A DNA stretch of 64,000 nucleotides from Candidatus Omnitrophota bacterium (GCA_016206685.1 JACQRB010000014.1:9152-73151), one strand, 5' to 3'. Shown: positions 36,926 through 64,000, counted from the stretch's first letter. The notes: a model not told the origin generated them from the sequence alone. Numbers and translations are program-made.

Positions 36926-36931
36926 CGCAAC

Positions 36932-39040: not shown

Positions 39041-39042
39041 CC

Positions 39043-40543: not shown

Positions 40544-40547
40544 GGCG

Positions 40548-41441
40548 ATGGTGACGGTGATCTACCTGGCGATGTTCCTGTGTGTGGCGGGGGTGGCGGT
40601 GGCGTTGCTGCCGCAGCCGCAGGTGGATTTTCCCCGGTTGACCGAAGGACAGTTGCCGCCCAGCCGCCCGCTGGAGGCCCCGTTGATGGGCGCCCGCCGC
40701 GGATTCCTGCGGGCCCTCCTGTCGCTCGTGGGGCGGTTGGTGCCGTGGATTCGAAAGCGCGAGGAACGCCGGGGGCAGCTCGTGGATACCGCCTCGAACC
40801 TCACGACGGAAGAGTTTGAAGGCATCAAGGTCCTCGCGGCAGGCGGCGGAGCGTTGCTGGCGATGGTGATTCTTCAGGAGCTCCGAGAGGTGACGCCGCT
40901 GTGGGTGATGGCGGCGGCGGTCCTGGGGTTCGTGATGCCGGATGCCTGGCTGCGCGCCCGGCTGGCGCGGCGGCACAAGGCGATGATGAGGCTGCTGCCG
41001 GAGATCATTGACATCCTGGCGTTGTGCGTGGGCGCGGGGCTGGATTTTCTCGGGGCGCTCAACAAAGTCGTGGCGGTCAAGGATTGGAAGCGCGAGCCGC
41101 TGAGCGAGGAGCTCGCTGCGGTCTTACAGGACATCAAGCTGGGCAAGCGGCGGGGGGAAGCCTTGCGGGCGATGGCCAAGCGGGTCAAGATGCCCGAGAT
41201 GACGTCCTTTGTCCGCACGCTGATCCAGGCGGACCGCATGGGCACCCCCATCGGGGAAGCCCTGGCCATTCATGCCGAGGACCTGCGGTTCCAGCGGTTC
41301 ACCAAAGCCGAGCGGCTGGCGCTCAAAGCGCCTATCAAGATTCTCATCCCGCTCATCTTCTGCATCCTGCCTAGCGTGGCGTTGATCGTGGGCGCGCCCA
41401 TCTTCATGCAGTTCGTGCAGCAAAACCCCTTCGGGAGATGA
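40548..41441 (+). CDS. tadC: TadC-type inner-membrane platform protein (T2SSF domain)
   Basis: Contains LPEIIDILALCVGAGLDFLGALNKVV...GKRRGEALRAMAKRV and a C-terminal TM pair. The start is ATG 40548. Confidence 0.8.
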   Translation: MVTVIYLAMFLCVAGVAVALLPQPQVDFPRLTEGQLPPSRPLEAPLMGARRGFLRALLSLVGRLVPWIRKREERRGQLVDTASNLTTEEFEGIKVLAAGGGALLAMVILQELREVTPLWVMAAAVLGFVMPDAWLRARLARRHKAMMRLLPEIIDILALCVGAGLDFLGALNKVVAVKDWKREPLSEELAAVLQDIKLGKRRGEALRAMAKRVKMPEMTSFVRTLIQADRMGTPIGEALAIHAEDLRFQRFTKAERLALKAPIKILIPLIFCILPSVALIVGAPIFMQFVQQNPFGR

Positions 41442-41456: not shown

Positions 41457-44400
41457 ATGCGCATTGACCGCTGGCTCCAACTGAAACGCACGAAGGCGTT
41501 CTGCATCAGCCTGGCGATGCTCTTCGCCGCGGAGCAGTGCGTCTGGGGCGCGGACCTCAACCTGCTCCACACCCTGCAGCTCTCCGGCGAGCAGCAGCGC
41601 CAGCTCGACCAGGCGCTCTCTGCCGCGGTCCTGACCATCTACCAAGACCTCTACAGCCGCGAACCCTCTTCCGAAGAGCTGCGTGAGGCGCTGGAGTTCC
41701 TGCGCCGCTCGCCCCAACTGGCTCACTTGGTGGAACGGCTCAGCCAATCCCCGGAATCCCGCTGGAGACTCCGCCAGCTCAACCCCGAGCGGATCAAGCA
41801 GCGCAAGGCGGAAGCCGCCCAGATTTCGCAAGCCGTCAGCCGCACCGTCGGCGGCTTCCTCCGCGACGTATTGCACTCATCACTCATCACTCATCACTCA
41901 TTACTGGTCATTACACCCACCCTCACCCTCCAACCTGCCCCGATAGTTCTGGCACAACTTGACGAGCCGGCAATTCAGTCCATCGAATCCTGGCTCCGCC
42001 AACCCGATACCCTGTGCGCCAACTGCGCCCCCAACGCCCTCGCTCCCTTACTGGGGATGGTCGGCGTGAACGTCTCCCGTGAGACCCTCACCGCCCAGGC
42101 GTTTCTCCTGGACTACCTCAGTGGGAATGCGGAATTCGGAATACTCCGCACTCCGCACTTCGAAGGTCCGTTGTTCATCAGCATGGATACCGTCCAACGC
42201 CTCGCCCAAGCGTACGGCTTGACGCTGAACGCCGTCGAGCTCACCAGCGACGAGCTCCTCCTGCTGAAGTACCCCATGATTGCCGCCCTGGACCTCACGC
42301 AGGACGGACAAGCCGACCACTACGTCGTCGTGCAGGACGCCAATGAGGCGCGGGTGGTCTACTACGAATCCGACGGCACGCGCGAATCCCTGCCCACGCA
42401 TGAGTTCCTACGGCTCTTCACCGGCTTTGCCCTCGTGGCCTCAGCCGACTCGTATGGGCGACTCTTGAATCAATCCCAAACGAGGACCATCGCTGGCGGA
42501 AGGTCCCGCCGGCAAGAGCTTCCGGACCTCGACAAACTCTTTGAGGAGCCCTCGCTTGGCGACACCTTGATGTCGGTCGGGATGAGCCTTGCCTCGGCGT
42601 ATTTTTCGCCGATGGGCTCCGGTGATTTCCTGTCGAATTTCGGCAGCTCGGCGCTGTACTCCCAAGTCAGCCAAGGCGCCACCCACCTCGCCGTCCGCAC
42701 CTTCGGCTGGAGTCCCGGGGCGGCTCAAATCTTCGGCTATGGCGTCACCGGCGCGTTGAGCGGAGCGACCACTGGCGCCTATCAGTCAAATTACCGGTGG
42801 AACAGCGACTCGTGGCTAGGGAGTACCATGGGGGGGTGGTTTGACATTCAGGCATATCCCATCTCCACAGGGGCAGCCATGGGAGCCCTCAAGGGTGCCG
42901 CGATCGGCGGGGGCTCGCTCCTCGCCTACGAAGCCCTCAAGGACACCAGCTTCTACGAGAGCAATCCCTTTGTGGCACGGCAGATGACGTCGCTGGTGGG
43001 AGGGGCAGGGGGCTACCTCGGCTTTTACGGTCTGACCTCGCTGGCCGGCATTGATCCCGCAATCACCGTTTCGAAAAGTTACGTCGATGCGCAACAGGAC
43101 TTCAAACTCGGGAACGCGACGCTGGCAAACCTCACCCTCATTCCGGAAGCCTTTGAAAAGCAGGGGGGCTATCAGGTGTGGGCCTCGCAGGCATTTGGGG
43201 GCGCTCTTGGCGGGTTGTACCTGGCATTCTCCGATCCTGCCTTCCAGACCAGCCTGGTGTCTCAGGGCATCGGGCTCGCCGCTGAGTACGCCGTACCCAA
43301 CTCCAGATATTCCCGCCTCTTGGGTCAAAGTGCTGGCTCCCTCGGCGCAGCCGCCTTGGGGTATGGAAGCGTCGGGTGGCCTGAGGTCCTCAGGGACGCG
43401 GCGATCTCCGGTCTCTCATCACTCGCCCTACAATCCCTGGGCGGCGGATTCGACCGCAACACGGGCAAGAACAACTGGGGGCTTACGCCCGTCCAGATGG
43501 CGGCGGTCGAGTATGCGGGGACCACCCTCCTGCGCGCGACATGGGACAGCGGCGCGGGATGGTACAGGGGGTCGAATGATGCTCTGTCGTCCACCTTCAC
43601 CGACTCCCTTGGTCGCAACCTCAGAAACCTCTCCCTGGACTATGCGACCTTCGGCAGGACCACCCCGGCTTGGACGCGCGGGGCAGGCGGCTGGGTGGAG
43701 GCGCAGTACATCGAGAAGCTCGCCCAGGTGTCCGGCATCGCCAACTTCAAAGCCAATGCCGACCACGCCATGCAAACCACCGGTCAGTCCTGGAATCAAT
43801 TCGTCAAAAGCGGTCGGCTGGATGACATCCTGCCCTCTCCGGCATTCTCCCTGGTGGACTATACGGCTTCCACCCTCCACTCCGCCGCCGTTGAGAACCT
43901 GGCGTTTCCGATGAGAGACTTTGCCTCACGGATGCTGCCGCAAACGCCGCCTCAGTCAATTCCCTTTAAGGATGGTACGATCGGCAAGCTCCAGGTCGCC
44001 GGAGCCACCTTCGGTCCTCCTGGAGGATCAGACCTCGTGGTGAACAGCTACGCGCTCTACAAAGACGGTCAGGAGCTTGGTCAGTATGTTGGAGTTGACC
44101 CGAAAACAGGCACGATCCGCGTCGCTGGCGACATCGAGGGCGATGCTGTTCAGTACTATGATGACCAGGGCAAGCTGACCGCAGCCATCACCGAGACGGG
44201 CATCCTGACGCCCCAGGTCGCCGGCGCGACCTTTCGTTCGCCAGTAGGGACTGACACCTTCACCGTTGACACCTACGAGCTCCGTGACTTCAGCGGCACC
44301 CCGTTGGGGCAGTTCATCGGCTTCGATGCCCAGGGCAAAGTCCGCGTCGCCGGTGACCTCGAAGGCGCCCAGGTGCGGTACTTCGATCAGGCTGGTCAGC

Positions 44401-59400: not shown

Positions 59401-62400
59401 CACCAAATGTCCGAAACTCTCCACGTAACTCTTCCAGCAGGGCGTTGGTCCGCCCGGATTCAGCGCTTGAAGACGGCTTGCGTGCAGGGGACATTACTTC
59501 TTCTCCTTCTAGTTCTAGGCCTTTAGACATACACCACCAGCAATCACGTGTCAATCCGAAATTCTTGGGCCTGCTCCTGCGACAGATTGCGGCTGGGCTG
59601 CGCAGCCTCTGGGCCGGCAAGGTGAGCCCGGCTCACGCACCGCCACAGCCACAGGTTCGCTCCTGGATCAGCCGCATCAGACCGCTCATCATCTCCTTCT
59701 TTGTCATTGCCACGACGCTCTTCCTGCCGACCCTTGGCTGGGCTGGCACCTACGTTGTCCGGCAAGGCGACAGCCTCTGGCGCATCGCCAAAGCACAGCT
59801 TGGCGATCCCCTGCGCTGGACTGAAATTCATCAAGCCAATCCGGCGATTATCAATCCGGACCTCATCTTTCCAGACCAACCGATTACCATTCCTGAACCG
59901 TCCGGGACCTCAGACGCCATCACCCAGCTGGCTGGTCAGCCAGCCGGTGGAGAACAAGCGCCGTTTGGACCGCAGAGCGTGCCTGACACAGGAGGTCTGG
60001 CCGACCTGATCACGCAAGCCATCCAGGCTCATCCGGATGTGTTGCTGGCCATCGGCGCCGTCGGACTTGCATGGCTCGGCTATGTCGCCTACCGCTGGTG
60101 GACCCGCCGCCCATCGAACCCCTCTCTCTCGCGTGATCTGCAAATTCGCTGGCTCTGGATGACGTTTGGATTCCGGCAATTCCTGAAAGAGCTGCGACCG
60201 CGATTCAACACAGCCTTCGTGGCATTACTGCTCTACGTGCTGACCAGTTTCAACGGGGTGTTAGTGGCTGCCTTCGCAGGCGCATTGTCTTCGACTAAAC
60301 CCGCAGCTCAAACAGGTCAACTGCAACGCTCGCCGCTACCAGACTTCACGTCTTCTCCGTTATTTATCGCTCCCACCCTCGAGGAGATCAAGTACTACGG
60401 CGATCTGCGCAAAGCCATAGGCAAGGTGGAAGAATCCAAGCGCTGGGTCGCCCTCATGGAACGGCTGTGGACGAAGACGGACGGCACGCGCTTCATGTTG
60501 ACTTCATTGAAGGAAGGAGAACTCTACACACCGGTTCCGGTCGAAGGTGCGGATGGTCCGGACAAACAGTTCGTGACCACGAAGCGGTTCATGGACTTCG
60601 TGCGGGATGAGAAGACGGCGTCCCGAGTCTATGCCGCCCCCTCTATCCCGGGACCGCTCGACCTCGCGAAGATCAAGGAAGACTGGCGCCAGATCACCAA
60701 CCCGCGCGAGCTGGAGCGGGCTCACGAGAAGCGAGAGCGGCTGTACGTGGTCTTCACCTGGCGGGAAGCCGACGGCACGCTGAAGGAAGGCCTGCTGGAA
60801 GCCGGCAAGCTCGCCGCCGAGGACACCGAGCGGCTCTCCAAGGCGTTTCTCAACGGGTTGTTTCTGTCGAGCCAATTGCTTGACGTGCTTGCCATCAGCA
60901 ATCCCCAGGCGCAAGCCAAGGAAATCAAGGCACGGTTTGGCATAGATATAGATGTTGAGGTAGGGAAGCAACCCTATGCCGCGGTGGACGTCAAGCGGGA
61001 TGAGCTGGGCAACATCACTCAGGTGGTTGGATTCTATCGGGACGATGACATTGAGGTGGAGCCGAATTGGGAGACTAAGCGGGCTGAGCTCATCCTCAAG
61101 GAGAAGGACGGGAATAAGAGCCCGCTCAAATTCTGGCCACTTAACAAGGACGAGATGGGGCTGACGTTCGCCAGGAAAACGCCGAATGAGATCGAGCGCG
61201 AGATAGGCGTGAGAGCAGGCAAAGAGTACGAAGGGGAGCGGTATGACCTCGAGAAGGACGGTGAGCCATTGGCGCGAGGCGAGATCATCCTCGGTCAAAA
61301 CTTCCTTGAGTCGCGGCTGGTGGATAACAAGATGGCGCAACTCCTCCTGCACGTGCAAATGGAGTCGTTGCTGCACTCCGTGGACTTTTTGGAGAAGCGA
61401 AGGGTCCTGGACCTGATCCTGGTGCCCATCAATATCGGTTTGGCTGTGGCGGGGAAGGGCGTGCCGATTCCCATTAGCAACATCGCCCGGATGGCTTTTG
61501 AAGCCCTGTATCATGACAAGCTGAAAGCTGCGACCCCCACGCCGGAGCAACAGGTGGAGTTCTTTGCACAATTCTTGATGGTTCGGCAGAAAGCACAGCG
61601 GGCTGGTCAGCGATTGAGCGACGACGAATTCGCACGCGAGAGTGAAACCGCCAAGGAGCAGTGGGCTGCGCTCAAGCCCGAGGAGCAATCCCGTCTGCGC
61701 GACGACGCCAAGACGTATCTGGTGGAGCGCTTCAGCGACTTCGATGACGAGCGGTTCTTCCATTTTGTCAGAGCCCAACGGACCGAGCAGACCGCGCGCT
61801 TCCTTCTGAACGCCTTCACGCTGTTTGCGGATATCGCCGGGGCAGTCCTTGAGCAGGACACCGTCAAAGTGCGGGGGGGATTCAAAGGGACCCAGCAGAT
61901 TGTGTTTGACCAGCCCAGGTTTAAGCTGGCGGTGGATATCCTCCGCGCGAAATACCTCTCCCTCACCGAGGTCAACCTTGGTCAGCTCATCTCCCTGGCG
62001 GCGACCGGTCGCCAACTGAACCTGATGAGCGTCCGCGAATTCGGTCGCGGGTCATTCCTGAATACGTTCTTCAGCGCGGTGAGCTTGAGGCCTGACACCC
62101 TGAGCGTGGTCAATGCGCTCCACAAGGCGTTCGCCCCGCCTGAGACGGCTTGGCAGAAAGTGTTTGAGACGTCGCCAAGCACCCCGCGCTTCATTGTGGA
62201 GCTCTTCGGCTTTCCCATCCAGACTTTCTCGGAGCTCGCCCTGAAGAAGGACGTGTTGCGGGCGATGTCCGAGTCGCATGCGTACGAAGTGACCGACGGG
62301 TGGTTCTCGTCCTCAGTCACCCCATACACGCAAGAGCGGTTCGAGCATCTTGACAAGATCCCCATTGGTAAAGTGATTCAGCTCGAATCGGGACAGCAGG

Positions 62401-64000
62401 TCAAGATTCCGGTGTATCTGGGCATCGAGCGGCTTCCGGACGGCGGGGAGAGATACCGCGTCATCATGATGGGCAAGAAGGGTCTTGAGCAGGCTGAGAA
62501 AGAGGTTCACAAGGATCTTGAGCGATACGACGGGTGGAGGAAGGGACTGAAGGAAGGCGGCTTCATCCAGCAGGTCTCAGCCCTCGCCGGCACGTACCGG
62601 CAGCGCATCTGGACCTGGCTTTTTGAAGGACACGATTGGGAAGCGCGGTTGTACCGCGCCAGCGCCTACCTGTGGGACCAGGCATTGATGGCGCACCGGG
62701 CGATGCTGTCAGGCAGTTGGGATATCGCCGAGGGAATCTTTGAGTACTTAACAGCTGTCGCTCAAGCTCAGAAGGACAGCCCGGTCGGAAAATTCGGCGG
62801 ATTCGCGGCAGCCTTTGACGCGTATCGTCGCGGCTCGTTCGAGGAACCCACCGTCGGTCCGAACGCAGCCATCGGTCTGGCATTTCTGACCTACGAGGCG
62901 AAGACAGGCGATACACGGTATCACCACCTGGTTGAGGATATCGCGGATTGGCTCGTGGAGATGCAGGGTGCCTCGAACGGCGGTGGAGTCAAGCAGTCGG
63001 CGCGGCTGACCAAACAATTTGGAGAGCCGAACGCCCTCGTCCATGCTTTCCTCAAGGCAGCCGGTCGCCCAGAGGCGGCGGCGCAGATTCGCACGTGGGT
63101 GGGGGAGCGCATGTGGGATCCCAGTAAGGGGCTGATGAGGGCTGAGGAAGGGCAGGATCAATACTCAGCCGACGCCCAGAGCCGCTGGATTCTCAGCGAG
63201 ACGGACCTGTTCTTCGATTCAAAGGACAAGGGCGGGCTTGGCATGGACGCGGACGCCTTCTGGAGTTATCTGGAGCGCATCGAGAGCCGGTTCGGGGTGA
63301 CGGAGAATTACACCAAGCGGGACGGAACGTTTGTCAAGGACTTGAAGCTGTTCGACTTGGCTGACAAAGACAATGCCGGCAGGATTGCGCGGCGGCATGT
63401 TGACACAGACGGCAAGGCGCTCCGGGCAGGGTTCGCCGAGGTGACTGGCGAAATGATCCTGGTCTATAAAACGGCAGCCAGGAAGTTTTCCGCGCTCGGT
63501 CGGAAGGGCCTTGCGGACAAGGCGCTTGAGAAAGCGAAATTCTACGCCGACCAACTGGAGCGCATGAAGGGCGAGGATGGCACGTTGCCGCAAGCAACCC
63601 GCAAAGACTTCTGGTCAGGGTTTGGCTGGTACACGCCGTTGGGTTATGCGTCGGTGGCATCCAAAGGGCAGGATGGCATAGCCAGATATGGGGATAACTT
63701 CCTCACCCCCTTCACCGACGAATCGAAGGAAGACTCCTCCTCGGTTCAATTGGAGCCGATTACGCGACCGCCTGTTGAGGCAACCATCACCAAGGAACAA
63801 GCCGTCTATCCAATAGCCGAGCTCGGCAAGGAGAAGCGCGAGCCGAAGAAGGAGCTGTTTGCCGGTTTGGTGGAGCGCAAGCTCCTTCGTGACAAGCGAA
63901 ACGACGGCTCCATCACGCCTGATGAACTCAAGAAGTTAGCTAAGTTCGAGGAGCGCCAGGAGAAACTGATCTACTACAACCCTGACGGCAGCGAGTTCGT
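41457..64000 (+). CDS. Giant multi-domain, multi-TM protein; 5' end present, 3' end beyond the window (more than 7,514 codons in window)
   Basis: A frame-0 TGA at 41451 is followed by ATG 41457, and then there is no stop through 63998 (hand-translated across the whole length; codon phase cross-checked at 46200, 52620 and 59100). The ORF track shows no + ORF in this frame after 41441. The N-terminus is signal-peptide-like. The start lies 15 nt downstream of tadC on the same strand. Confidence 0.85.
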   Translation, partial: MRIDRWLQLKRTKAFCISLAMLFAAEQCVWGADLNLLHTLQLSGEQQRQLDQALSAAVLTIYQDLYSREPSSEELREALEFLRRSPQLAHLVERLSQSPESRWRLRQLNPERIKQRKAEAAQISQAVSRTVGGFLRDVLHSSLITHHSLLVITPTLTLQPAPIVLAQLDEPAIQSIESWLRQPDTLCANCAPNALAPLLGMVGVNVSRETLTAQAFLLDYLSGNAEFGILRTPHFEGPLFISMDTVQRLAQAYGLTLNAVELTSDELLLLKYPMIAALDLTQDGQADHYVVVQDANEARVVYYESDGTRESLPTHEFLRLFTGFALVASADSYGRLLNQSQTRTIAGGRSRRQELPDLDKLFEEPSLGDTLMSVGMSLASAYFSPMGSGDFLSNFGSSALYSQVSQGATHLAVRTFGWSPGAAQIFGYGVTGALSGATTGAYQSNYRWNSDSWLGSTMGGWFDIQAYPISTGAAMGALKGAAIGGGSLLAYEALKDTSFYESNPFVARQMTSLVGGAGGYLGFYGLTSLAGIDPAITVSKSYVDAQQDFKLGNATLANLTLIPEAFEKQGGYQVWASQAFGGALGGLYLAFSDPAFQTSLVSQGIGLAAEYAVPNSRYSRLLGQSAGSLGAAALGYGSVGWPEVLRDAAISGLSSLALQSLGGGFDRNTGKNNWGLTPVQMAAVEYAGTTLLRATWDSGAGWYRGSNDALSSTFTDSLGRNLRNLSLDYATFGRTTPAWTRGAGGWVEAQYIEKLAQVSGIANFKANADHAMQTTGQSWNQFVKSGRLDDILPSPAFSLVDYTASTLHSAAVENLAFPMRDFASRMLPQTPPQSIPFKDGTIGKLQVAGATFGPPGGSDLVVNSYALYKDGQELGQYVGVDPKTGTIRVAGDIEGDAVQYYDDQGKLTAAITETGILTPQVAGATFRSPVGTDTFTVDTYELRDFSGTPLGQFIGFDAQGKVRVAGDLEGAQVRYFDQAGQLTANISYDTTAKEFLVTHLFSKNATLALEDTSITGALWQTTDLAGNVIGRAIYNDDQLVATISPDNRVVTPELKGVQFNIPNEGTATLDIHAVHDLVSGKRLESVAVDPKTGQTRAGWGPQDASTAFHYPTPTGGLRIDRVNVDPDTGEMGPVGIKAYFDEHKRLLGVVDSTTPEHPVTRIAAAQNEITEPARQLGFEDGEVFDIHVGEDSVKPITQVASREGLGQYVFNYARDTAIFQTEPGASTQSLVKQLLGPEVIVPESASATVVFDKTGTPVVLLPTPQAEQPMRVFEVNWQEESPLDLMKRFIEETSQPSSTGSPLNLESADLTLQQKPVGNDITGTSQAKAALVELIHYGMGPEGMTVFTGKDGQQRLASLESKTPETHIYRFADDGSKVGINPTSGTVVFAEDATGKRFLNESGKLTRLELNPRQAETLDLQGRGNLELKAGDAPATFTADSKGQLRLIEGTATATGPDAFTQNLSVATGDALVGKPLSQQTQASTSLVRQFQQEFNDKGYPAVFGVAPLAVDGIAGEQTKQAAQLALGRELSVINAQGEQARLTADKMVEYVRQNPGKLSALTNPFISPEEKAAALREIEGTRSPTLDMRERRLQGLATAIQKGDYEQALVGREQYKVAVALSYNLNALKSLDSLKPVPDDVRPMLESAERKLVIGDIAGSQLELGKAKLAAQVNDTIRNYIRVLDAPIQTEFDVVRNNIYAGYEAASDVISNSISTIPGLETSRDRDTPLGARGDAAPDRIEPYLKVLEGIKATLADPDLTPNGLRVAQEKFQQVQILVQRDQSRDLADANAWARGYATLFDQALNDVRAGTFDSTMSKYGGPINKLSYSEVRDLFGKALAGDQAAQEIGRLGPDLTAVNQALRDAMPMEQKAFMAAHHGTLMVAARSAGAGLALGPAAWFAPLSTGISALLLTSTLGTQSLAQAFETSIREQSAFDEAPVKQAMIKMAFDTVNLWNVGIGYFSDARLFFIPSLLFSYKPYVSEGSFAKSYEVPLAIAATFAAAGFSFPTYEAGKTIPGVLREAYQQGSRTPVWGSEVLGGFREIFGSGGPAAKTSWRSLTLAEETAGLSKSAQMVMAPSQTATLAAGIMRDAAIFNAGVGLVTGGHSALDLMYQTITDPNMKAFALAAPFLTPIASPILQRAPIAGRIANLFEKGNETFFAETLGRGVLARAERYFVEEFIKEPLISKSVLMSQYLPDGAREIAEELFDRTPNISSHISGATSRTSGVPFHNSMGVLGVLQGGQFQEIPTGITEPKILYGASGEPVRMLMPGEAASVDVSAQQTPVTLVNELGRPFGQELAQPVTLFGTDNQPVTGSPIDVAASSPALFDASGNQPLTEPVKVYSPGQLFDASGKEVVPAPVLAEVASDIRAKSFPTVDQPLTPPAVVDVALLPKTFVQEHRLTSPVTVDRWTYDSTSNLYEAQANLPGASAPLTFQFNPTSGPRVDTIQLGDTTYDHTGISRIFEPGLHQFGDRVYAFETPLKLPVANGTPNLTTLPPSIVDVTPLMGLLPANLPTELRNDLALKLTRHEGNVAEILNRPELALQDRTLIMTYFAIQDLIDPAQLKPAEESKLVQAVHDLVGQGIPKIPVRELATRYALPMRSEVLATDTILLIPQFKTATGERSPPPAAGAQVIPLHTVPSFGAAPSAPEMQIAASAESVPLPQLPRKQEPLIEEPITEPGVPPLSTPIPTPSPLSWQSRVRGTLRHGSSYLQTERPVETMLGSGLALSALSVFLTGGATLPLVATALATGAAAFLKQAQTETPAVVPPVVEQGEEPIRKPAEVVNLAEWRARLMRGAKTVPAQAWKIAAGIFGTLTLSDWTKWSGRVGLFAVAMVLGFPGVVLAHQFLAKATGLLAAPEAWTAIKASENTLWGIARDVLRANGIEPTNTQIANLVNEIAQHNGIASPDVIRIGQQIDVPSQYATPEAIAQLTGQTVPAPQPPVAETPASAVEQAPPTAEQVAPPAQVQPAAGEQLQETSSAALSAWQQALDGLTVNAEWLSSAFLILAGVAILGIASLLIFRWWSRRRSQVSQPVAEPKFVEPDEAIPVEQPTSGRIIMLDDQAVGEVKQPGDIKEVEGRILYGRLEQERVQLMQRYLAGDQSVEARIRKLEAQRNDALDQLKVAAEQYDDDVLLSLLNPDGQQRFAVGQQISRDERGGRNVIGEILEARRATEEAAKQQARDAILSDVDQAISASTEAWQLEQHKRTFLDNVLDPAKLASQEFTDDEVAALRQEVVRRFEQAGERLIVTEAKAEEAVAQKLAERQLAESALEEVLKTREVYYRAFDERKTLGLQKVEEAGEPYRQAQTEAAQAWLQSRREVVRHLLRLWVPLWKTGPREGETPEAKVERLTNTLLERFERIVQSGRYSNEDALHFLDQLVRARTTFEREGLAEERALVERHIQDLIAMIEAVSDGTVYWEGNLVGQDFNKLFKAGLPVAILGDEAEGQQPPYTITVVTSSGFKGRREYIGDQEVSAQVSVRGTAPAEVKIGPTIEAKEAAKPAEVEEAAAPTDGEASAVRADADIVRVRVEGSKVVTVAEALEAAKERGVVTEEVINRVSQGAYRVEVEIQRRDGSVGATIDARLMGGLEYGVAPGSSIILTPTAPTAKEPRPGGLEGQAGFALVEVLPGVAGGVLVSIALYPLIGWLGGLAGLAVLGGLWLVASRIRAPAEEKASGLAVGVPRLSVLEPDDGGDGQREQDHASEDDIQAHFSLFDHLRSLLSHVATLYRITSIPMPLMKIVGRKGEGETTWPITTLARKMFAALYNAFASPFRWLSSSFINSSISLVWSPVNVTLTPTLLSLGFLLAWALGWIPDVTLGADGWHGSLPYFSFGGLAKIIKESGEGGDKSTTKELVFTTQEVAALLRVHLSTVYHLIDKGLLKASRISSHIIRIHRDALEETFGAGAPEVKWLTVEEVAKRVKLHYRTLLRRIHAKGLKAYRLGGGEGDFRIRQDDLNAFLTARKTNPALTPPAARSGQTGSEVFPGPWFPPMRSDPTSPWRERDRGGVEFGDLGPFNEPPASPGKIEPNDSADAVVAVLVRWSEQGISKAQFESVLSWWDPDKEREEEALRPQLRSGDPLTGWLLGALEQYQQEYQQEPTNPTLAVAAKTLREFLSPPPVAEPQQGGRAQTKEEEALVEKQKLEQRVRTTFHDLAIPVNVIIGSVEFIREALGQHPEAKPLVQQLTKLMGELNAKLNHARARVVKVLWEEARSTQDARTRLMELVDGIRTSLEDLARWWDLHQDDLLQYVRDTPGEPRVAWARDRISKVLPQARELLDQVLEEEAPTEVDLGSLVTRVQADFPATDSLTVTLADLPPVLPRVRVKAFGLRRGLWNILRNAEEAGATRVGIRLTLVPLTPIPGAPPGIAIEVANDGPAIEEGVLAKLFKEQVTGKEHGHGIGMDALGRLVRASGGTIRADNREGHPVFTIWLPAFTPTVGGGAPSGKTVELKRSGMEAVRQLRELYTRALELLDQPTQLPALMTEASRAVDQILVGEARRMAKDLLNPLSGLQLAVELSLRRQKGWLPGEREGLSSMLRRQLEELDDINRALEGWPDDQPLPIETLREGLPAILDWRAILAVAPAKAERFYQTAIKTVESLASRHNVFRELLDFTERITLEDAVKIYAETVRSYLNGAYKDQDPGALIAASDWRDVFENKLTPFSSDMRLFGGQETQTFDKKSIEKVREIGRVVIALHTLKSKMQSGEWDPEVVKRAFAKAAMEGAFLQHVKNALTDRDQRDWSQKDLEELARSLGITELKLNDLIDDLAARQAIPVEPGLVIRIERESGGFQVSLPTINKSRPSSTRKRLMAWAVTSVVMSALAAWAKMSVGAAEPGTFSQFVGDLLGAGFLGAVTALLAAVVMLPVVLMGRHPAPRRGSGTLAELSDWLAGDIPSSMDAGKWKERLETFRQEAGYAHVPEADFVEAVQGIIHEDKQWIRKQVEFLSLSAKEEDARGSAAERIARKAQETAPDNPDAPTYLILLTTAELIAAVLSRPEPGGKGITRRQILRSALLLGGARLLGLRSQARAAEPPQNPADAQAILARIVTPQRRRAIERAARLLDVEPELIEAFLIEEVLYRESKSRWGRWLADTKDLLSSRASRGVMQVRMDTILGTKTTSRHLLTFLKELRAFGEDGEPRTDEERDAREALREVMTAWDTYETVAKPLGKKLKDYLYESVAKLLLYDRFNILAGAFVMRIKAGQDGAANKDKGPRIHSRHWKAETLERVAKFYSGAEKSNRGKHKLAWYRILKPEAPSRQRVPQKRKVSVPDATGRAAVESGLILATDWKGRKEDELKQLDERMGLTPERLKKLRVLNANLKQVMWEVLQMYKHAPNQRYHVESFAFFGSIVTASPEEFLRRLDDPEHDEHGLPTHDVDVAVNVTPRDNVPVQRYQPIWYRRRRINVVTSGVTGGGPSALLDVKRLEASENYLLEFLRERVASLSPEERLALFDRTVLDKVADELIAHWKRQEKDGKPLLALQMGLATSPGLTDRESKALIVSLRKQEEAIVQILMDIYRARERDKLGWEMEGPLTQVLHERVRQEISRELAMSWLERSPDAVNVASQDYVRQIDQDDALRPMLTTVISRSENVKDRLEALALIMNTMQDRQSRGVDVFEPLWDNMMKELLSQGVAQLNPQDIAMAELIRLEIFASLLARARTLNSSEATTVQATFGVAFAAAFAPKLLSVLGLSAPIIPMMAWPVAFLALGYGIWFKRALFGQIHQAVRGWLGRPPVVSGKLDVDALAREVTDSLDLIERGTIELFSLKEMDEEGARAAAAAYGLALEALRNSIIGALKRDRRPYDDKIVDAIQERAVQLLRPGSVVSQETGERLPSSANGWRTLHSWLVPLVGAGLLSLYGFGGDFSWGLVGLTLAMLGGLAAVSYLASTASSRLANFFRSSRSSLTWSSRASSFFSMSKLHVLRTDVSFFSRSISSVFLRPISLSRSISSTIWLTFGSIRSTDLRTPESPSPNVRNSPRNSSSRALVRPDSALEDGLRAGDITSSPSSSRPLDIHHQQSRVNPKFLGLLLRQIAAGLRSLWAGKVSPAHAPPQPQVRSWISRIRPLIISFFVIATTLFLPTLGWAGTYVVRQGDSLWRIAKAQLGDPLRWTEIHQANPAIINPDLIFPDQPITIPEPSGTSDAITQLAGQPAGGEQAPFGPQSVPDTGGLADLITQAIQAHPDVLLAIGAVGLAWLGYVAYRWWTRRPSNPSLSRDLQIRWLWMTFGFRQFLKELRPRFNTAFVALLLYVLTSFNGVLVAAFAGALSSTKPAAQTGQLQRSPLPDFTSSPLFIAPTLEEIKYYGDLRKAIGKVEESKRWVALMERLWTKTDGTRFMLTSLKEGELYTPVPVEGADGPDKQFVTTKRFMDFVRDEKTASRVYAAPSIPGPLDLAKIKEDWRQITNPRELERAHEKRERLYVVFTWREADGTLKEGLLEAGKLAAEDTERLSKAFLNGLFLSSQLLDVLAISNPQAQAKEIKARFGIDIDVEVGKQPYAAVDVKRDELGNITQVVGFYRDDDIEVEPNWETKRAELILKEKDGNKSPLKFWPLNKDEMGLTFARKTPNEIEREIGVRAGKEYEGERYDLEKDGEPLARGEIILGQNFLESRLVDNKMAQLLLHVQMESLLHSVDFLEKRRVLDLILVPINIGLAVAGKGVPIPISNIARMAFEALYHDKLKAATPTPEQQVEFFAQFLMVRQKAQRAGQRLSDDEFARESETAKEQWAALKPEEQSRLRDDAKTYLVERFSDFDDERFFHFVRAQRTEQTARFLLNAFTLFADIAGAVLEQDTVKVRGGFKGTQQIVFDQPRFKLAVDILRAKYLSLTEVNLGQLISLAATGRQLNLMSVREFGRGSFLNTFFSAVSLRPDTLSVVNALHKAFAPPETAWQKVFETSPSTPRFIVELFGFPIQTFSELALKKDVLRAMSESHAYEVTDGWFSSSVTPYTQERFEHLDKIPIGKVIQLESGQQVKIPVYLGIERLPDGGERYRVIMMGKKGLEQAEKEVHKDLERYDGWRKGLKEGGFIQQVSALAGTYRQRIWTWLFEGHDWEARLYRASAYLWDQALMAHRAMLSGSWDIAEGIFEYLTAVAQAQKDSPVGKFGGFAAAFDAYRRGSFEEPTVGPNAAIGLAFLTYEAKTGDTRYHHLVEDIADWLVEMQGASNGGGVKQSARLTKQFGEPNALVHAFLKAAGRPEAAAQIRTWVGERMWDPSKGLMRAEEGQDQYSADAQSRWILSETDLFFDSKDKGGLGMDADAFWSYLERIESRFGVTENYTKRDGTFVKDLKLFDLADKDNAGRIARRHVDTDGKALRAGFAEVTGEMILVYKTAARKFSALGRKGLADKALEKAKFYADQLERMKGEDGTLPQATRKDFWSGFGWYTPLGYASVASKGQDGIARYGDNFLTPFTDESKEDSSSVQLEPITRPPVEATITKEQAVYPIAELGKEKREPKKELFAGLVERKLLRDKRNDGSITPDELKKLAKFEERQEKLIYYNPDGSEF
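41874..41901 (+). repeat. (cactcat)x4 heptamer tract inside the giant ORF
   Basis: Four perfect tandem heptamers encode HSSLITHHS. A unit that is not a multiple of 3 means any copy-number change shifts the frame. Confidence 0.9.
41985..42450 (+). other. Peptidase C39-like (papain-fold cysteine peptidase) domain of the giant ORF
   Basis: The candidate nucleophile context is LCANCAPNALAPLLGMVG (Cys codon at 42014). The downstream DHYVVVQDANEARVVYYESDG (His codon at 42318) matches the C39 Cys...His layout. A heptamer module (42126-42170) is inserted in-frame. Confidence 0.55.
43995..44440 (+). repeat. Two tandem 74-aa protein repeats (222-nt period) in the giant ORF
   Basis: VAGATFGPPGGSDLVVNSYALYKDGQELGQYVGVDPKTGTIRVAGDIEGDAVQYYDDQGKLTAAI aligns with VAGATFRSPVGTDTFTVDTYELRDFSGTPLGQFIGFDAQGKVRVAGDLEGAQVRYFDQAGQLTANI. 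A degenerate third unit lies near 44620-44800. Confidence 0.8.
45912..46040 (+). other. Peptidoglycan-binding domain (PG_binding_1-like) in the giant ORF
   Basis: SLVRQFQQEFNDKGYPAVFGVAPLAVDGIAGEQTKQAAQLALG fits the V..LQ..L...GY....DG..G..T..A pattern. Confidence 0.6.
50061..50228 (+). other. LysM domain 1 of the giant ORF, flanked by TM segments
   Basis: IKASENTLWGIARDVLRANGIEPTNTQIANLVNEIAQHNGIASPDVIRIGQQIDVP is LysM-like. TM-like segments lie at about 49930-50000 and 50465-50530. Confidence 0.6.
52500..52625 (-). CDS. Candidate 41-aa single-TM peptide, antisense-embedded in the giant ORF
   Basis: MIEQREVGLYIIFGGMVLFALAIAAVVWLQDRQARHAHRKP. It has SD AGGAG 5 nt upstream, and its ATG overlaps the stop of the upstream minus-strand ORF (ATGA). 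Confidence 0.5.
   Translation of the reverse strand: MIEQREVGLYIIFGGMVLFALAIAAVVWLQDRQARHAHRKP
52622..52816 (-). CDS. Candidate 64-aa two-TM protein, antisense-embedded in the giant ORF
   Basis: MKLDESQRKGLANALYNAANIFLASVVIGQVVSPSPFRPTIFISGIGMLVILYSVATWLNKERR. The ATG lies 7 nt after a consensus -10 box, giving a leaderless configuration. Confidence 0.5.
   Translation of the reverse strand: MKLDESQRKGLANALYNAANIFLASVVIGQVVSPSPFRPTIFISGIGMLVILYSVATWLNKERR
52824..52852 (-). promoter_or_regulatory. Consensus sigma70-type promoter on the minus strand inside the giant ORF
   Basis: The minus strand reads TTGACA (52852-52847), a 17-nt spacer, then TATACT (52829-52824). These are the same hexamers as the pilin-operon promoter. 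Confidence 0.55.
53040..53360 (+). other. Two tandem excisionase/MerR-type HTH (HTH_17-like) domains in the giant ORF
   Basis: The two copies are FTTQEVAALLRVHLSTVYHLIDKGLLKASRISSHIIRIHRDALEETF and WLTVEEVAKRVKLHYRTLLRRIHAKGLKAYRLGGGEGDFRIRQDDLNAFL. Confidence 0.65.
53890..54775 (+). other. Histidine-kinase core (HisKA-like H-box plus HATPase_c) in the giant ORF
   Basis: H-box TTFHDLAIPVNVIIGSVEFIRE, N-box LWNILRNAEEAGATRV, G1 IEVANDGPAI, G2 GHGIGMDALGRLVRASGGTI, ending HPVFTIWLP. Confidence 0.7.
56484..56567 (+). other. Internal twin-arginine (Tat) signal-peptide-like segment in the giant ORF
   Basis: GITRRQILRSALLLGGARLLGLRSQARA then AEP. It has an RRxxL motif, an h-region and an AxA site, and sits immediately upstream of the SLT-like domain. 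Confidence 0.5.
56590..57090 (+). other. Lytic transglycosylase (SLT, goose-lysozyme-like) domain in the giant ORF
   Basis: LIEAFLIEEVLYRESKSRWG...SRGVMQVRMDT...YDRFNILAGAFVM fits the SLT pattern of a catalytic E-S, GxMQ and AY/N..G. Confidence 0.55.
59141..59494 (-). CDS. Candidate 117-aa coiled-coil protein, antisense-embedded in the giant ORF
   Basis: MSPARKPSSSAESGRTNALLEELRGEFRTFGEGLSGVRKSVERMEPKVNQMVEDIDLLKLIGRKNTDEIDRLKNDTSVLKTCSFDIEKKLEALELQVKLLRDDLKKFASRLEAVEAK. SD AGGAG lies 8 nt upstream and the stop is TAG. The sense-frame translation here is S/R-rich low complexity. Confidence 0.55.
   Translation of the reverse strand: MSPARKPSSSAESGRTNALLEELRGEFRTFGEGLSGVRKSVERMEPKVNQMVEDIDLLKLIGRKNTDEIDRLKNDTSVLKTCSFDIEKKLEALELQVKLLRDDLKKFASRLEAVEAK
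59526..59554 (-). promoter_or_regulatory. Sigma70-type promoter on the minus strand inside the giant ORF
   Basis: The minus strand reads TTGACA (59554-59549), a 17-nt spacer, then TATGTC (59531-59526), about 30 nt upstream of the SD-ATG of the coiled-coil ORF. Confidence 0.5.
59748..59894 (+). other. LysM domain 2 of the giant ORF, flanked by TM segments
   Basis: TYVVRQGDSLWRIAKAQLGDPLRWTEIHQANPAIINPDLIFPDQPITIP is a canonical LysM. It is preceded by the TM segment IRPLIISFFVIATTLFLPTLGWA and followed by VLLAIGAVGLAWLGYVAYRWW. Confidence 0.75.

What the first reader, a model, noticed from the sequence alone, without database searches (positions are those of the whole stretch)
41457..64000. 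Giant uninterrupted ORF (>22.5 kb, >7,500 codons, still open at window end) directly downstream of the pilus locus and absent from the supplied ORF track
In the frame with codon starts divisible by 3 there is a TGA at 41451 and an ATG at 41457, then no stop up to 63998. I translated the whole stretch by hand and verified phase at several anchors. The ORF track contains no + ORF in this frame after tadC, as expected for an ORF that never terminates inside the window. The frame stays open through about 48-50% GC stretches (46.2-48.2 kb), where chance openness is implausible, and most of the translation is protein-like. It starts with a signal-peptide-like N-terminus (KAFCISLAMLFAAEQCVWGA). It contains many TM-like segments and a mosaic of domains: a C39-like peptidase, tandem repeats, PG-binding, 2x LysM, SLT, 2x HTH plus a histidine kinase core, and long coiled coils. 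Its start is 15 nt after tadC on the same strand, suggesting co-transcription with a c-di-GMP-controlled pilus operon. Metagenomic studies have reported giant genes next to secretion/pilus-like loci in Omnitrophota and proposed roles in prey attachment and cell-wall digestion. This locus fits that theme, but the specific combination seen here is not something I can match to a described system.
Basis: partly seen in the sequence, partly recalled or inferred. Interest (0 to 1): 0.92.

Follow-up and report, generated by a model that had tools for sequence, protein, structure and literature searches.

The report
Giant pilus-linked gene in Omnitrophota
This is a real giant gene of more than 7,500 codons, still open at the window end, that sits at the end of a Tad pilus operon in an uncultured Omnitrophota bacterium; genes of this kind are already described, but this family shows unreported features, including small genes nested inside the giant reading frame.

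Summary
From ATG 41457 the frame has no stop for 7,514 codons; the other five frames have 127-340 stops over the same span.

The contig comes from an NCBI 'Candidatus Omnitrophica' MAG. The N-terminal 380 aa (signal/anchor, helical region, C39 cysteine peptidase) define a family of more than 50 loci. In all 39 loci with upstream sequence the gene follows tadB-tadC directly. In almost every locus the frame stays open to the end of the available sequence (up to about 3,880 codons).

A c-di-GMP-I riboswitch precedes the pilin-to-giant gene block here and in 5 of 8 relatives. Confirmed modules are two LysM, two HTH_17, a histidine-kinase core, about 14 scattered TM helices, and a conserved C-terminal block of about 1,200 aa ending in an (alpha/alpha)6 glycosidase-like barrel. 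The SLT claim was not confirmed.

This matches the published Omnitrophota giant-gene class (N-terminal C39, many TM helices, Tad/T2SS neighbours), so it is a new member of a known kind.

Three things were absent from the two giant-gene papers I searched:
- Hairpin repeat elements and nested small genes sit at two hotspots, and the giant frame is kept open across all 23 insertions.
- Window 59.1-59.5 kb looks coded on the opposite strand.
- The operon carries riboswitch control.

The full length and whether the protein is translated are untested.

The parts
41457..64000 (+). Giant ORF, at least 7,514 codons, still open at the window end
   Evidence: No stop from 41457 to 63998. The other frames have 127-340 stops. 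The codon-position GC pattern fits this frame.
41457..42596 (+). Conserved N-terminal module (aa 1-380): signal/anchor helix (aa ~14-33), helical region, C39 peptidase domain (aa ~150-345). This is the family-defining part.
   Evidence: 55-78% identity in 52 loci and 31 database proteins. NCAPNA / DHYVVV / ESDG motifs are invariant in A1. AF2 pLDDT is 81. Foldseek matches ComA, PCAT1 and LahT C39 domains, TM 0.65-0.72. Pfam PF03412 scores 35.8 bits.
41874..41905 (+). Heptanucleotide array (CACTCAT) x4.6 at hotspot A of the N-terminal module. It is degenerate: no partner arm and no hairpin.
   Evidence: TRF; fold z = +0.6.
42124..42159 (+). Short paired arrays (GGAATGC) x2.7 and (ACTCCGC) x2.4 at hotspot B. 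Weak hairpin, no cassette.
   Evidence: TRF; fold dG -18.5, z = -2.0.
43233..43904 (+). Region aa 593-816 shared with six related loci (39-45% identity)
   Evidence: tblastn.
43962..44516 (+). Two tandem repeats of about 90 aa (aa 836-1020), with a weak third copy downstream
   Evidence: Local alignment score 122 against shuffles 27 +/- 5.
45912..46022 (+). PG_binding_1-like segment (sub-threshold)
   Evidence: Pfam 16.8 bits, cut-off 23.
50073..50228 (+). LysM domain 1 (aa 2873-2924), preceded by a TM helix at aa 2832-2850
   Evidence: Pfam 23.9 bits against 20.9; hydropathy.
52622..52864 (-). Weak candidate for a nested antisense small 2-TM gene (low confidence)
   Evidence: GC1/GC2 inversion at 52737-52856. 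Small codon-model advantage, below the threshold used. Architecture aligns with the minus-strand 2-TM cassettes of L030, L046 and L047.
53043..53360 (+). Two HTH_17 / excisionase-type DNA-binding domains (aa 3863-3907 and 3918-3968)
   Evidence: Pfam 74.5 bits; TIGR01764 73 bits.
53904..54776 (+). Histidine-kinase core: H-box-like FHDLAIPV (aa ~4157) and HATPase_c (aa 4335-4440). A second, His-less DHp-like segment lies at aa ~4506-4553.
   Evidence: HATPase_c 36.5 bits against 26.4; HisKA only 19.3 bits. Sensor-kinase NCBIfam hits. The H-box was read from the sequence.
56490..56576 (+). Internal twin-arginine-signal-like segment (ITRRQILRSALLLGGARLLGLRSQARA), probably acting as a TM helix
   Evidence: Read from the translation; not tested with a predictor.
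59141..59530 (-). Antisense-coded segment: a 129-aa (ATG) or 159-aa (TTG) coiled-coil ORF on the minus strand, nested in the giant ORF. The giant frame here reads as 29% Ser, 12% Arg.
   Evidence: GC1 0.30-0.38 against GC2 0.58-0.64. Codon model favours the minus frame by up to 36 nats, comparable with known nested cassettes in L030, L037 and L038. Composition. Only generic coiled-coil Pfam hits.
59751..59894 (+). LysM domain 2 (aa 6099-6146), preceded by a TM helix at aa 6077-6095
   Evidence: Pfam 33.9 bits; hydropathy.
60387..63998 (+). Conserved module of about 1,200 aa (aa 6311-7514), also found inside other 2,000-6,500-aa proteins, usually after a LysM
   Evidence: Exhaustive HMMER gave 93 hits; the best was 1.3e-168 at 35% identity. 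blastp map.
62655..63716 (+). (alpha/alpha)6-barrel, glycoside-hydrolase / sugar-epimerase-like domain (aa ~7067-7420)
   Evidence: AF2 pLDDT 71, pTM 0.77. Foldseek PDB matches to GH76, rhamnosidase, MmpH and 2-epimerases, TM 0.5-0.6. Stand-alone homologues carry an N-terminal PilZ domain.
33157..33326 (+). Promoter-like site (TTGACA-18-TATACT), c-di-GMP-I-GGC riboswitch (33202-33320) and terminator-like hairpin (33312-33326) ahead of the pilin-to-giant gene block
   Evidence: Rfam RF03167 69.3 bits against 59; consensus scans.
33366..41441 (+). Five or six Flp-type pilin genes (G/xxxxEY motifs), orf35542, tadG-like, orf39037, tadB, tadC: the operon segment that ends in the giant ORF
   Evidence: ORFs and translations; Pfam Tad and T2SSF. 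The order is conserved in relatives.
25699..32754 (+). Upstream Tad machinery: CpaF-like ATPase, PPIase, CpaB/RcpC, secretin fused to TonB_C, TadZ-TadA fusion
   Evidence: Pfam.

Best explanation
This is the 5' part (at least 22.5 kb) of a genuine giant gene of the Omnitrophota type. It is the last gene of a Tad/Flp pilus operon that starts behind a c-di-GMP-I riboswitch.

Shown here:
- The frame is open for 7,514 codons.
- Its first 380 aa form a conserved module: a signal/anchor helix, a helical region and a C39 double-glycine-type cysteine peptidase with the Cys and His motifs intact. This module defines a family of more than 50 loci.
- In every locus with upstream sequence the gene follows tadB-tadC.
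- In nearly every locus the frame runs off the end of the available sequence.
- The frame is kept open even across inserted gene cassettes, so continuity of the ORF is under selection.

Inferred:
- The product is a multi-pass inner-membrane protein, with about 14 TM helices (roughly one per 500 aa).
- Its loops alternate between outside modules and cytoplasmic modules. Outside: C39, repeats, two LysM, and a glycosidase-like (alpha/alpha)6 barrel. Inside: a long coiled coil, two HTH domains and a histidine-kinase core.
- It is made together with the pilus when c-di-GMP changes.
- It acts at the cell surface, binding and modifying peptidoglycan or glycans of a partner cell (attachment, episymbiosis or predation) or of the cell's own envelope around the pilus.
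- The C39 domain may cut the protein, or the GG-containing pilin-like proteins, after double-glycine sites.

The variable body appears to grow by accretion. Modules look like ordinary genes with their own signal or TM starts, and at least one segment (59.1-59.5 kb) is an engulfed or nested minus-strand gene.
For: Open frame and statistics. Coding signature.

Source labelled Candidatus Omnitrophica/Omnitrophota.

Family:
- 52 loci found.
- ORF runs off the locus end in about 45 of them. In the loci with the most downstream sequence it reaches 3,072-3,879 codons.
- L025 has 1 TAG in 3,726 codons, inside an M48 domain.
- L005 is open for 3,759 codons after a frameshift at a repeat array.

Synteny: tadB-tadC-giant in 39 of 39 loci.

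Selection on the frame: 23 of 23 insertions are in frame with 0 stops. 16 of 16 intragenic IVP cassettes have 0 stops in the giant frame; 12 of 12 intergenic cassettes have 1-8 stops in the equivalent frame.

Riboswitch: present here and in 5 of 8 relatives, twice directly upstream of tadB. Promoter-like and terminator-like sites flank it.

Domains. C39 fold. Barrel. PilZ-bearing homologues of the barrel.

Topology signals: TM helices next to both LysM domains, with RWWSRRR and RWWTRR on the far side.

Literature match.
Against: - There is no expression, proteomic or long-read evidence for this locus, and the 3' end is not in the window.
- Most of the body has no detectable homologue. The word-indexed search of the C-terminal 1,215 aa found nothing. 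Beyond aa 380, only aa 593-816 and aa 1367-1474 match related loci.
- SecA_DEAD, present in most published giants, is not seen in these 7,514 aa.
- Cytoplasm-type modules (HTH, kinase) and internal signal-like segments would fit separate gene products as well as one protein.
- The hydropathy-only topology is not fully consistent around aa 3,800-3,860.
- One segment of about 130 aa reads as antisense junk.
- The contig carries a frameshift in ileS, so it is not error-free.
- A terminator-like site lies between orf35542 and tadG.
Confidence: 0.65

Rival explanations
1. Polyprotein or multi-product locus. The frame is read through, but the functional units are module-sized proteins. They would be released by the N-terminal C39 peptidase at double-glycine sites, or made from internal starts. 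That would explain why modules begin with their own signal, TM or Tat-like segments. This overlaps with the best explanation.
For: Modules start like ordinary proteins: a Tat-like RRQILRS...ARA at aa ~5012 and a TM followed by LysM at aa ~6077. The C39 fold and catalytic motifs are conserved in the whole family. West-Roberts et al. raise the same idea. Several GG motifs lie near module borders (by eye).
Against: No cleavage sites were tested. Shine-Dalgarno signals are rare genome-wide, so internal starts cannot be assessed. Internal starts alone would not require a stop-free frame, yet the frame is under selection.
Confidence: 0.3
2. Accretion scaffold. Only some modules are functional: the N-terminal module, the LysM-plus-barrel block and the kinase. 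Much of the rest is tolerated read-through of engulfed genes and mobile elements in non-native frames or on the wrong strand. The giant ORF is then partly an evolutionary by-product of stop loss in a genome with high GC3. This overlaps with the best explanation.
For: The antisense-coded 59.1-59.5 kb segment. Nested cassettes translated out of frame in relatives. Antisense frames opposite real genes stay open for 600-755 codons in this genome. There is a low-GC3 segment at 45.9-48.6 kb. The body diverges extremely between loci.
Against: The codon-position signature fits the giant frame over nearly all 22.5 kb. The C-terminal 1,200-aa block is conserved at 22-35% identity in other large proteins. 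Zero stops against an expectation of about 172 needs ongoing selection.
Confidence: 0.3
3. Not one gene. It would be an operon of ordinary genes, an assembly chimera, or a decaying pseudogene that only looks like a single ORF.
For: The contig has at least one frameshift, in ileS. The MAG comes from short-read metagenomics and only short Logan contigs match it. The giant protein did not appear in the protein database searches.
Against: P(no stop) is about 1e-76. The same open-frame behaviour appears in about 45 independently assembled loci from JGI, ENA and NCBI. Sequencing errors and decay create stops; they do not remove them.
Confidence: 0.03

Closest known systems
Omnitrophota giant genes with N-terminal signal peptide and C39 peptidase (West-Roberts et al. 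2023, bioRxiv 10.1101/2023.11.21.568195; the 24-protein PF03412 architecture cluster of Nielsen & Lui 2026, bioRxiv 10.64898/2026.06.07.730766)
   Same: Phylum label. N-terminal signal plus C39. Many scattered TM helices (about one per 370-500 aa). HATPase_c-type regulatory modules. Carbohydrate-active domains found only by structure prediction. Tad/T2SS genes and TonB_C domains next door. Sequences that are almost unique to each locus.
   Different: At least 7,514 aa are visible and the contig allows at most about 12.6 kb more, whereas published catalogues start at 10,000 or 30,000 aa. No SecA_DEAD, dockerin or TSP3 domains in the visible part. High GC (58-65%). The strict tadB-tadC-giant order, the c-di-GMP riboswitch and the nested cassettes and hairpin elements are not mentioned in either paper.
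C39 double-glycine leader peptidases of PCAT/AMS ABC transporters (ComA, PCAT1, LahT)
   Same: Fold (TM 0.65-0.72). The CxxxAL...G catalytic Cys motif, the HYVVV His motif and a downstream acidic residue.
   Different: Not fused to an ABC transporter. It follows a signal/anchor helix and a helical region of about 110 aa. It is interrupted at two loop positions by hairpin elements or gene cassettes in many relatives. The substrate is unknown.
Tad/Flp pilus operons under GEMM-I (c-di-GMP-I) riboswitch control
   Same: Flp pilins with G/xxxxEY, CpaB, a secretin, TadZ/TadA, TadB, TadC and a TadG-like protein. The aptamer scores above the Rfam gathering score. That c-di-GMP riboswitches often sit ahead of pilus genes is from my own knowledge (Sudarsan et al. 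2008).
   Different: A giant gene is the terminal cistron. The secretin carries a TonB_C domain. TadZ and TadA are fused. No A24 prepilin peptidase (TadV) was found in the locus.
In-frame palindromic elements in coding genes (Rickettsia palindromic elements; small dispersed repeats and heptamer STRR repeats of cyanobacteria), recalled from my own knowledge and not checked in papers here
   Same: Hairpin-forming repeat elements of about 75 nt are inserted in frame in coding regions: rluD, the ftsW-like/murG junction and the giant gene.
   Different: The arms are tandem arrays of a 7- or 8-nt unit (median 4.4 copies) that differs between genomes and sites. The loop can carry a whole gene.
23S rRNA intervening-sequence proteins / bAvd-like four-helix bundles (PF05635, PF22296)
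   Same: The nested cassettes encode PF05635 proteins (126-130 bits) inside a long stem formed by the flanking arms, as in rRNA intervening sequences.
   Different: They sit inside a protein-coding gene, in its +1 frame, with the host frame kept stop-free. None is present in this window.

Membership tests
Omnitrophota giant genes (C39-N-terminal class) | Encoded in an Omnitrophota genome | tested here: met
   Nine of ten window proteins looked up are in the collection, and their clusters carry names of NCBI MAG 'Candidatus Omnitrophica/Omnitrophota bacterium' proteins (HY596_*). Relatives are mostly labelled Omnitrophica/Omnitrophota. These are submitter labels only; no marker-gene phylogeny was run.
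Omnitrophota giant genes (C39-N-terminal class) | N-terminal signal peptide followed by a C39 peptidase domain | tested here: met
Omnitrophota giant genes (C39-N-terminal class) | Numerous transmembrane helices spread along the protein | tested here: met
   About 14 hydropathy peaks of at least 1.6 over 19 residues. This is hydropathy only; DeepTMHMM is not available.
Omnitrophota giant genes (C39-N-terminal class) | Length of at least 10,000 aa (Nielsen & Lui) or more than 30,000 aa (West-Roberts) | not testable with these tools
   7,514 codons are visible and the ORF is still open. The contig is 76.6 kb, but the sequence beyond the window could not be fetched.
Omnitrophota giant genes (C39-N-terminal class) | Divergent SecA_DEAD / preprotein-binding domain (in most, not all, published giants) | tested here: not met
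   No PF07517 hit in aa 1-7514 at E <= 0.01. It could lie downstream of the window.
Omnitrophota giant genes (C39-N-terminal class) | Type II secretion / type IV or Tad pilus genes in the neighbourhood | tested here: met
   conserved in 39 of 39 relatives.
Peptidase C39 | Pfam PF03412 above the gathering score, papain-like C39 fold, catalytic Cys and His | tested here: met
   35.8 bits against 22. Foldseek TM 0.65-0.72 to ComA, LahT and PCAT1. C190 (NCAPNALAPLLG) and H288 (DHYVVV) are invariant in the three-sequence alignment A1. Activity was not tested.
Peptidase C39 | Fusion to an ABC-transporter membrane and ATPase domain (bacteriocin exporters) | tested here: not met
   No ABC_membrane or ABC_tran hit in the giant protein.
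c-di-GMP-I riboswitch | Covariance-model score above the Rfam gathering score, placed 5' of the regulated genes | tested here: met
   RF03167 69.3 bits against 59, full length, at 33202-33320, followed by pilin genes. Conserved in 5 of 8 relatives. Ligand response was not tested.
Tad/Flp pilus system | Flp pilin(s), CpaB/RcpC, secretin, TadZ, TadA ATPase, TadB, TadC | tested here: met
Tad/Flp pilus system | Dedicated A24 prepilin peptidase (TadV/CpaA) in the locus | tested here: not met
   No Peptidase_A24 hit among the locus ORFs scanned. It may be encoded elsewhere in the genome.
Sensor histidine kinase | HATPase_c plus a HisKA/DHp domain with a phospho-acceptor His | tested here: inconclusive
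   HATPase_c 36.5 bits against 26.4 (met). HisKA 19.3 bits against 26.9 (below the cut-off), and that segment lacks a His. An H-box-like FHDLAIPV upstream was seen by eye only.
LysM | Pfam PF01476 above the gathering score | tested here: met
   23.9 and 33.9 bits against 20.9.
SLT lytic transglycosylase | Pfam SLT match or lysozyme-like fold with a catalytic Glu | tested here: not met
   No SLT hit at E <= 1, only T6SS_Tse3_cat at 14.5 bits. No PDB sequence match.
Six-hairpin (alpha/alpha)6 glycosidases / 2-epimerases | (alpha/alpha)6-barrel fold | tested here: met
   AF2 pTM 0.77. Foldseek probability 1.0 and TM 0.5-0.6 to GH76, MmpH, rhamnosidase and cellobiose 2-epimerase. Catalytic residues and family assignment were not determined.

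The most novel reading that the evidence does not exclude
Giant genes of this family grow, and are kept open, by accretion. Hairpin elements built from tandem 7-8-nt arrays, small gene cassettes (PF05635 four-helix bundles, small 2-TM proteins) and even whole neighbouring genes on either strand become embedded in the reading frame. They persist only when they leave the frame stop-free. The result is true nested or overlapping genes inside a giant ORF. The 7-8-nt arrays near the 5' end may also act as slipped-strand on/off switches for the whole giant gene. This would give a concrete, testable mechanism for how bacterial genes reach tens of kilobases.
Probability: 0.3. Interest if true: 0.85.

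Novelty: new member of a known kind. Interest (0 to 1): 0.58.

Why it matters
Giant bacterial genes are among the least understood features of uncultured episymbiotic or predatory bacteria. Whether they are really read as one unit is an open question.

This locus and its family of more than 50 members add three things:
1. A sequence handle: a conserved 380-aa N-terminal C39 module that always follows tadB-tadC. It can be used to find such genes and to design experiments.
2. Evolutionary evidence that ORF continuity is under selection: the frame is kept open across 23 of 23 insertions, while the same cassettes between genes carry stops.
3. A regulatory link: a c-di-GMP riboswitch upstream, and PilZ-bearing homologues of the terminal glycosidase-like domain. 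This ties the giant protein to pilus-mediated surface behaviour.

The nested cassettes and the antisense-coded stretch suggest how such genes grow.

Tried and rejected
- Whole-protein and 3,715-aa homologue queries failed, one as too long and one timed out.
- The word-indexed search and both collection scans with the C-terminal 1,215 aa found nothing. Only the exhaustive HMMER search found relatives.
- The Shine-Dalgarno test for internal starts was uninformative, because SD motifs are rare even at bona fide starts.
- Inverton hypothesis for the 59.1-59.6 kb anomaly: no convincing flanking inverted repeats and no heptamer arrays there. Rejected.
- The idea that the window anomaly is a PF05635 cassette was rejected: there is no IVP match anywhere in the window. 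The antisense protein gives only generic coiled-coil hits.
- Exact look-ups of the antisense ORF and of CpaF, made to reach the NCBI contig and extend past the window, failed.
- BLAST self-comparison missed the tandem repeats; direct alignment found them.
- The literature search for the heptamer and IVP elements returned nothing relevant.
- orf39037 was considered as TadV and rejected: it has a single TM helix and no A24 hit.
- Chance openness due to high GC was rejected.
Full report
OBSERVATION

The frame whose codons start at positions divisible by 3 has a TGA at 41451 and an ATG at 41457. It has no stop up to 63998, which is 7,514 codons. Over the same 22.5 kb the other five frames contain 127-340 stops. 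With the observed codon-position composition about 172 stops would be expected, so log10 P(no stop) is about -76. The codon-position GC pattern (GC1 about 0.65, GC2 about 0.45, GC3 0.5-0.8) fits this frame almost everywhere, and GC3 drops to about 0.5 at 45.9-48.6 kb.

SOURCE AND CONTEXT

Exact-sequence look-ups place the window on a 76.6-kb contig of an NCBI MAG named 'Candidatus Omnitrophica/Omnitrophota bacterium' (locus tags HY596_01065 to HY596_01200). I could not fetch sequence beyond the window.

Upstream lie a cell-wall and division gene cluster (FtsI, MurE, MurF, MurD, MurG, MurC, FtsA), then ileS, lspA, lgt and rluD, and then a Tad/Flp pilus locus:
- a CpaF-like ATPase, a PPIase and CpaB;
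- a secretin fused to a TonB_C domain;
- a TadZ-TadA fusion;
- a near-consensus promoter-like site, a c-di-GMP-I-GGC riboswitch at 33202-33320 (69.3 bits against a cut-off of 59) and a terminator-like hairpin at the aptamer's 3' end;
- five or six Flp-type pilin genes, orf35542, a TadG-like gene, orf39037, tadB and tadC.

The giant ORF starts 15 nt after tadC.

THE PROTEIN

Pfam and NCBIfam find these domains above their cut-offs:
- Peptidase_C39, aa 242-329;
- LysM, aa 2873-2924 and aa 6099-6146;
- two HTH_17/excisionase domains, aa 3863-3968;
- HATPase_c, aa 4335-4440.

HisKA and PG_binding_1 are only sub-threshold. No SLT domain was found by Pfam at E <= 1 or by sequence search of the PDB. 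Two tandem repeats of about 90 aa are clear at aa 836-1020.

Hydropathy gives about 14 TM helices scattered from aa 2730 onwards, in addition to the N-terminal signal/anchor. Both LysM domains directly follow a TM helix. The next TM helix after each is followed by RWWSRRR or RWWTRR. This is coherent with LysM outside and the coiled-coil, HTH and kinase modules inside. This topology is inferred, not computed with a dedicated predictor.

An AlphaFold model of aa 1-380, built with 12 homologues, has pLDDT 81. Its second half matches C39 double-glycine peptidases (ComA, LahT, PCAT1; TM 0.65-0.72). The NCAPNALAPLLG (Cys), DHYVVV (His) and ESDG motifs are invariant in the family alignment.

The last 1,200 aa had no hit in the word-indexed search. 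An exhaustive HMMER search found 93 relatives. The block is an internal module of other proteins of 2,000-6,500 aa, usually preceded by LysM. P0034 continues about 700 aa beyond the point where the window ends, so the ORF very probably continues.

The final third (aa ~7067-7420) models as an (alpha/alpha)6 barrel (pTM 0.77). It resembles GH76 mannanases, rhamnosidases, MmpH and sugar 2-epimerases. Stand-alone homologues of about 650 aa carry an N-terminal PilZ domain, which is a second link to c-di-GMP.

THE FAMILY

Only the first ~380 aa are broadly conserved. With an alignment of that module I found 3 loci in species-representative genomes (MAGs labelled Omnitrophota, Planctomycetales and Nitrospirae) and 49 in JGI metagenomes. 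I also found 31 mostly partial database proteins, and the named ones are mainly 'Candidatus Omnitrophica'.

- Synteny: in all 39 loci with upstream sequence the order is tadB-tadC-giant.
- Open frame: in about 45 loci the ORF runs off the end of the available sequence. In the loci with the most downstream sequence it is still open after 3,072-3,879 codons.
- Exceptions, which support the same picture:
  - L002/L025 have one TAG in 3,726 codons. It splits an M48 peptidase domain, with HELGHH before it and SRFDEHAAD after it.
  - L005, L032 and L049 have frameshifts located at short-repeat arrays. In L005 the shifted frame then runs 3,759 codons to the locus end.
  - L029 ends in a TAA after 353 codons on a short contig.
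- Divergence: beyond aa 380 only aa 593-816 (six loci) and aa 1367-1474 (one locus) are shared.
- Riboswitch: c-di-GMP-I riboswitches occur in 5 of 8 relatives scanned, and in two of them directly upstream of tadB.

The opposite is seen.

NESTED ELEMENTS

At two positions of the N-terminal module (site A, aa ~140-160; site B, aa ~225-235), 25 of 37 loci carry arrays of tandem 7- or 8-nt repeats. The median is 4.4 copies, or about 31 nt. The arrays usually come as a left and a right array that pair into long, periodically bulged hairpins (z = -6 to -10). The unit sequence differs between loci.

In 23 cases an insertion of 195-603 nt sits at these sites. Most of these insertions encode a PF05635 (23S-rRNA-IVS / bAvd-like) four-helix-bundle protein in the +1 frame (126-130 bits). 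Some encode a small 2-TM protein on the minus strand.

All 23 insertions are in frame and have no stop in the giant frame. As a control, 16 of 16 intragenic IVP cassettes have 0 stops in that frame, while 12 of 12 intergenic cassettes in the same Tad loci have 1-8 stops in the equivalent frame. This is evolutionary evidence that continuity of the giant frame is selected. One caveat applies: the intragenic cassettes are a closely related subfamily, so they are not 16 independent events.

The window has no IVP cassette. It has only degenerate arrays at the two hotspots: (CACTCAT) x4.6 at 41874-41905, and short paired arrays at 42124-42159.

ANTISENSE-CODED SEGMENT IN THE WINDOW

At 59.1-59.5 kb the giant frame reads as 29% Ser and 12% Arg, and GC1 falls to 0.30-0.38, below GC2. 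A codon model trained on the upstream genes prefers a minus-strand frame by up to 36 nats. That is as strong as the signal from known nested cassettes in L030, L037 and L038, which the same scan recovers.

That minus frame holds an ORF (59141-59530 from its ATG) that encodes a coiled-coil-like protein. Its third codon positions coincide with those of the giant frame, which is the antisense arrangement least likely to create stops at high GC3. In this genome such frames stay open for 600-755 codons opposite real genes. No flanking inverted repeats or arrays were found.

I read this as a minus-strand gene nested in, or engulfed by, the giant ORF (moderate confidence). A second, weaker candidate lies at 52622-52864. 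It resembles the minus-strand 2-TM cassettes of other loci, but it did not pass the stricter scan.

COMPARISON WITH WHAT IS KNOWN

West-Roberts et al. 2023 describe Omnitrophota giant genes with numerous TM helices, N-terminal C39 domains near signal peptides, frequent HATPase_c domains and nearby T2SS-like genes. [quoted passage not shown]

Nielsen & Lui 2026 catalogue 916 proteins of at least 10 kaa. Their catalogue includes a PF03412 architecture cluster, roughly 2% TM residues, and 13 of 14 of the largest giants flanked by T2SS, T4P or Tad genes, with some TonB_C flanks. Most of the sequences are unique.

The window gene fits this class on every testable feature except two. No SecA_DEAD domain is seen in the visible part, and total length could not be tested. 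It is therefore a new member of a known kind.

The two giant-gene papers contain none of the terms I searched for riboswitches, c-di-GMP, nested or antisense genes, intervening-sequence proteins, 'tad' or 'pilus'. Those family-level observations may therefore be new, but I searched only these two papers and the held library.

MECHANISM (INFERRED)

A change in c-di-GMP switches the riboswitch. The pilins, the platform proteins TadB and TadC, and the giant protein are then made together. The giant protein inserts co-translationally as a multi-pass membrane protein. It displays peptidoglycan-binding and glycan-active modules outside, and coiled-coil, DNA-binding and kinase modules inside. The C39 domain may process it or the GG-containing pilin-like proteins. 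None of this has been tested.

LIMITS

- The 3' end is unknown.
- There are no expression data.
- Topology comes from hydropathy only.
- Taxonomy rests on submitter labels.
- Many related loci come from a few environments and are not all independent.
- The contig has an ileS frameshift.

Noticed in passing
window 9833-9942, 23925-23995, 33567-33638, 33891-33921, 35668-35699, 36684-36713, 41874-41905: A genome-wide family of hairpin elements of about 75 nt, built from two arrays of a tandem 7-nt unit (here mostly AATGCGG / CACTCCG, about 4.4 copies each). One straddles the ftsW-like/murG junction. One is inserted in frame in rluD and adds about 24 aa. One follows the first pilin gene. They resemble in-frame palindromic elements such as the Rickettsia RPEs.
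   Followed up: partly
L003 331-798; L005 10668-11114; L028, L036-L039, L045-L053 (sites A and B of the N-terminal module): Cassettes encoding PF05635 (23S rRNA IVS / bAvd-like) four-helix-bundle proteins are nested in the +1 frame inside the C39 domain of the giant ORF, between hairpin arms. The giant frame has 0 stops across 16 of 16 such cassettes, while 12 of 12 intergenic copies have 1-8 stops in the equivalent frame.
   Followed up: yes
L030 10152-10475 (-), L046 4187-4549 (-), L047 3324-3584 (-); window 52622-52864 (-): A second cassette type: small 2-TM proteins encoded on the minus strand inside the giant ORF. The window has a weak look-alike.
   Followed up: partly
L005 ~10335-10415; L049 ~414-481; L032: Frameshifts in the giant ORF fall at the 7-8-nt repeat arrays of hotspot A. 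This could be slipped-strand phase variation of the giant gene, or assembly error in repeats.
   Followed up: partly
L002 10118-10120 = L025 16280-16282: A single in-frame TAG splits an M48 metallopeptidase domain (HELGHH before it, SRFDEHAAD after it) in an otherwise open frame of 3,726 codons. It may be a nonsense mutation, a read-through site or an error. The two records are 99.99% identical, so this is one observation.
   Followed up: partly
window ~19640 (ileS, 19000-21919): The isoleucyl-tRNA synthetase gene is split by a frameshift: ...VAAGYI* in one frame continues as RGKKPVYWC... in the next. This is either an assembly indel or a real lesion in an essential gene.
   Followed up: partly
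window 33157-33326; L004 7579-7712; L005 122-261; L010 2319-2403; L015 1183-1294; L044 945-1041 and 7976-8056: c-di-GMP-I riboswitches are conserved in these Tad-plus-giant-gene loci. In the window the aptamer is flanked by an 11/12 sigma-70-like promoter and a terminator-like hairpin.
   Followed up: yes
P0065, P0066, P0069, P0075 (homologues of window aa ~7050-7400): Stand-alone proteins of about 650 aa combine an N-terminal PilZ c-di-GMP receptor domain with the same (alpha/alpha)6 glycosidase-like barrel that ends the visible part of the giant protein.
   Followed up: partly
window 29006-30634 and 30715-32754: The Tad secretin carries a C-terminal TonB_C domain. TadZ (ParA-like) and TadA (T2SSE ATPase) are fused in one 679-aa protein, and a second CpaF-like ATPase lies at 25699-26997. 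No A24 prepilin peptidase was found in the locus.
   Followed up: partly
window 45900-48600: This segment of the giant ORF has GC3 of about 0.5, against about 0.72 elsewhere, and overall GC of 52%. It has no detectable homologue and may have been acquired from a lower-GC relative.
   Followed up: no
window 34089-34490, 34417-34881 (pilin-like genes): Two pilin-like proteins have a double glycine directly before the predicted class III cleavage site (GG|QSTAEY, GG|QSTVEL). The operon ends in a gene with a conserved double-glycine (C39) peptidase domain. A link between the two is pure speculation.
   Followed up: no
window 25217-25291: A tRNA gene (54.3 bits) lies just upstream of the CpaF-like gene and overlaps a mechanical ORF (25210-25683).
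   Followed up: no
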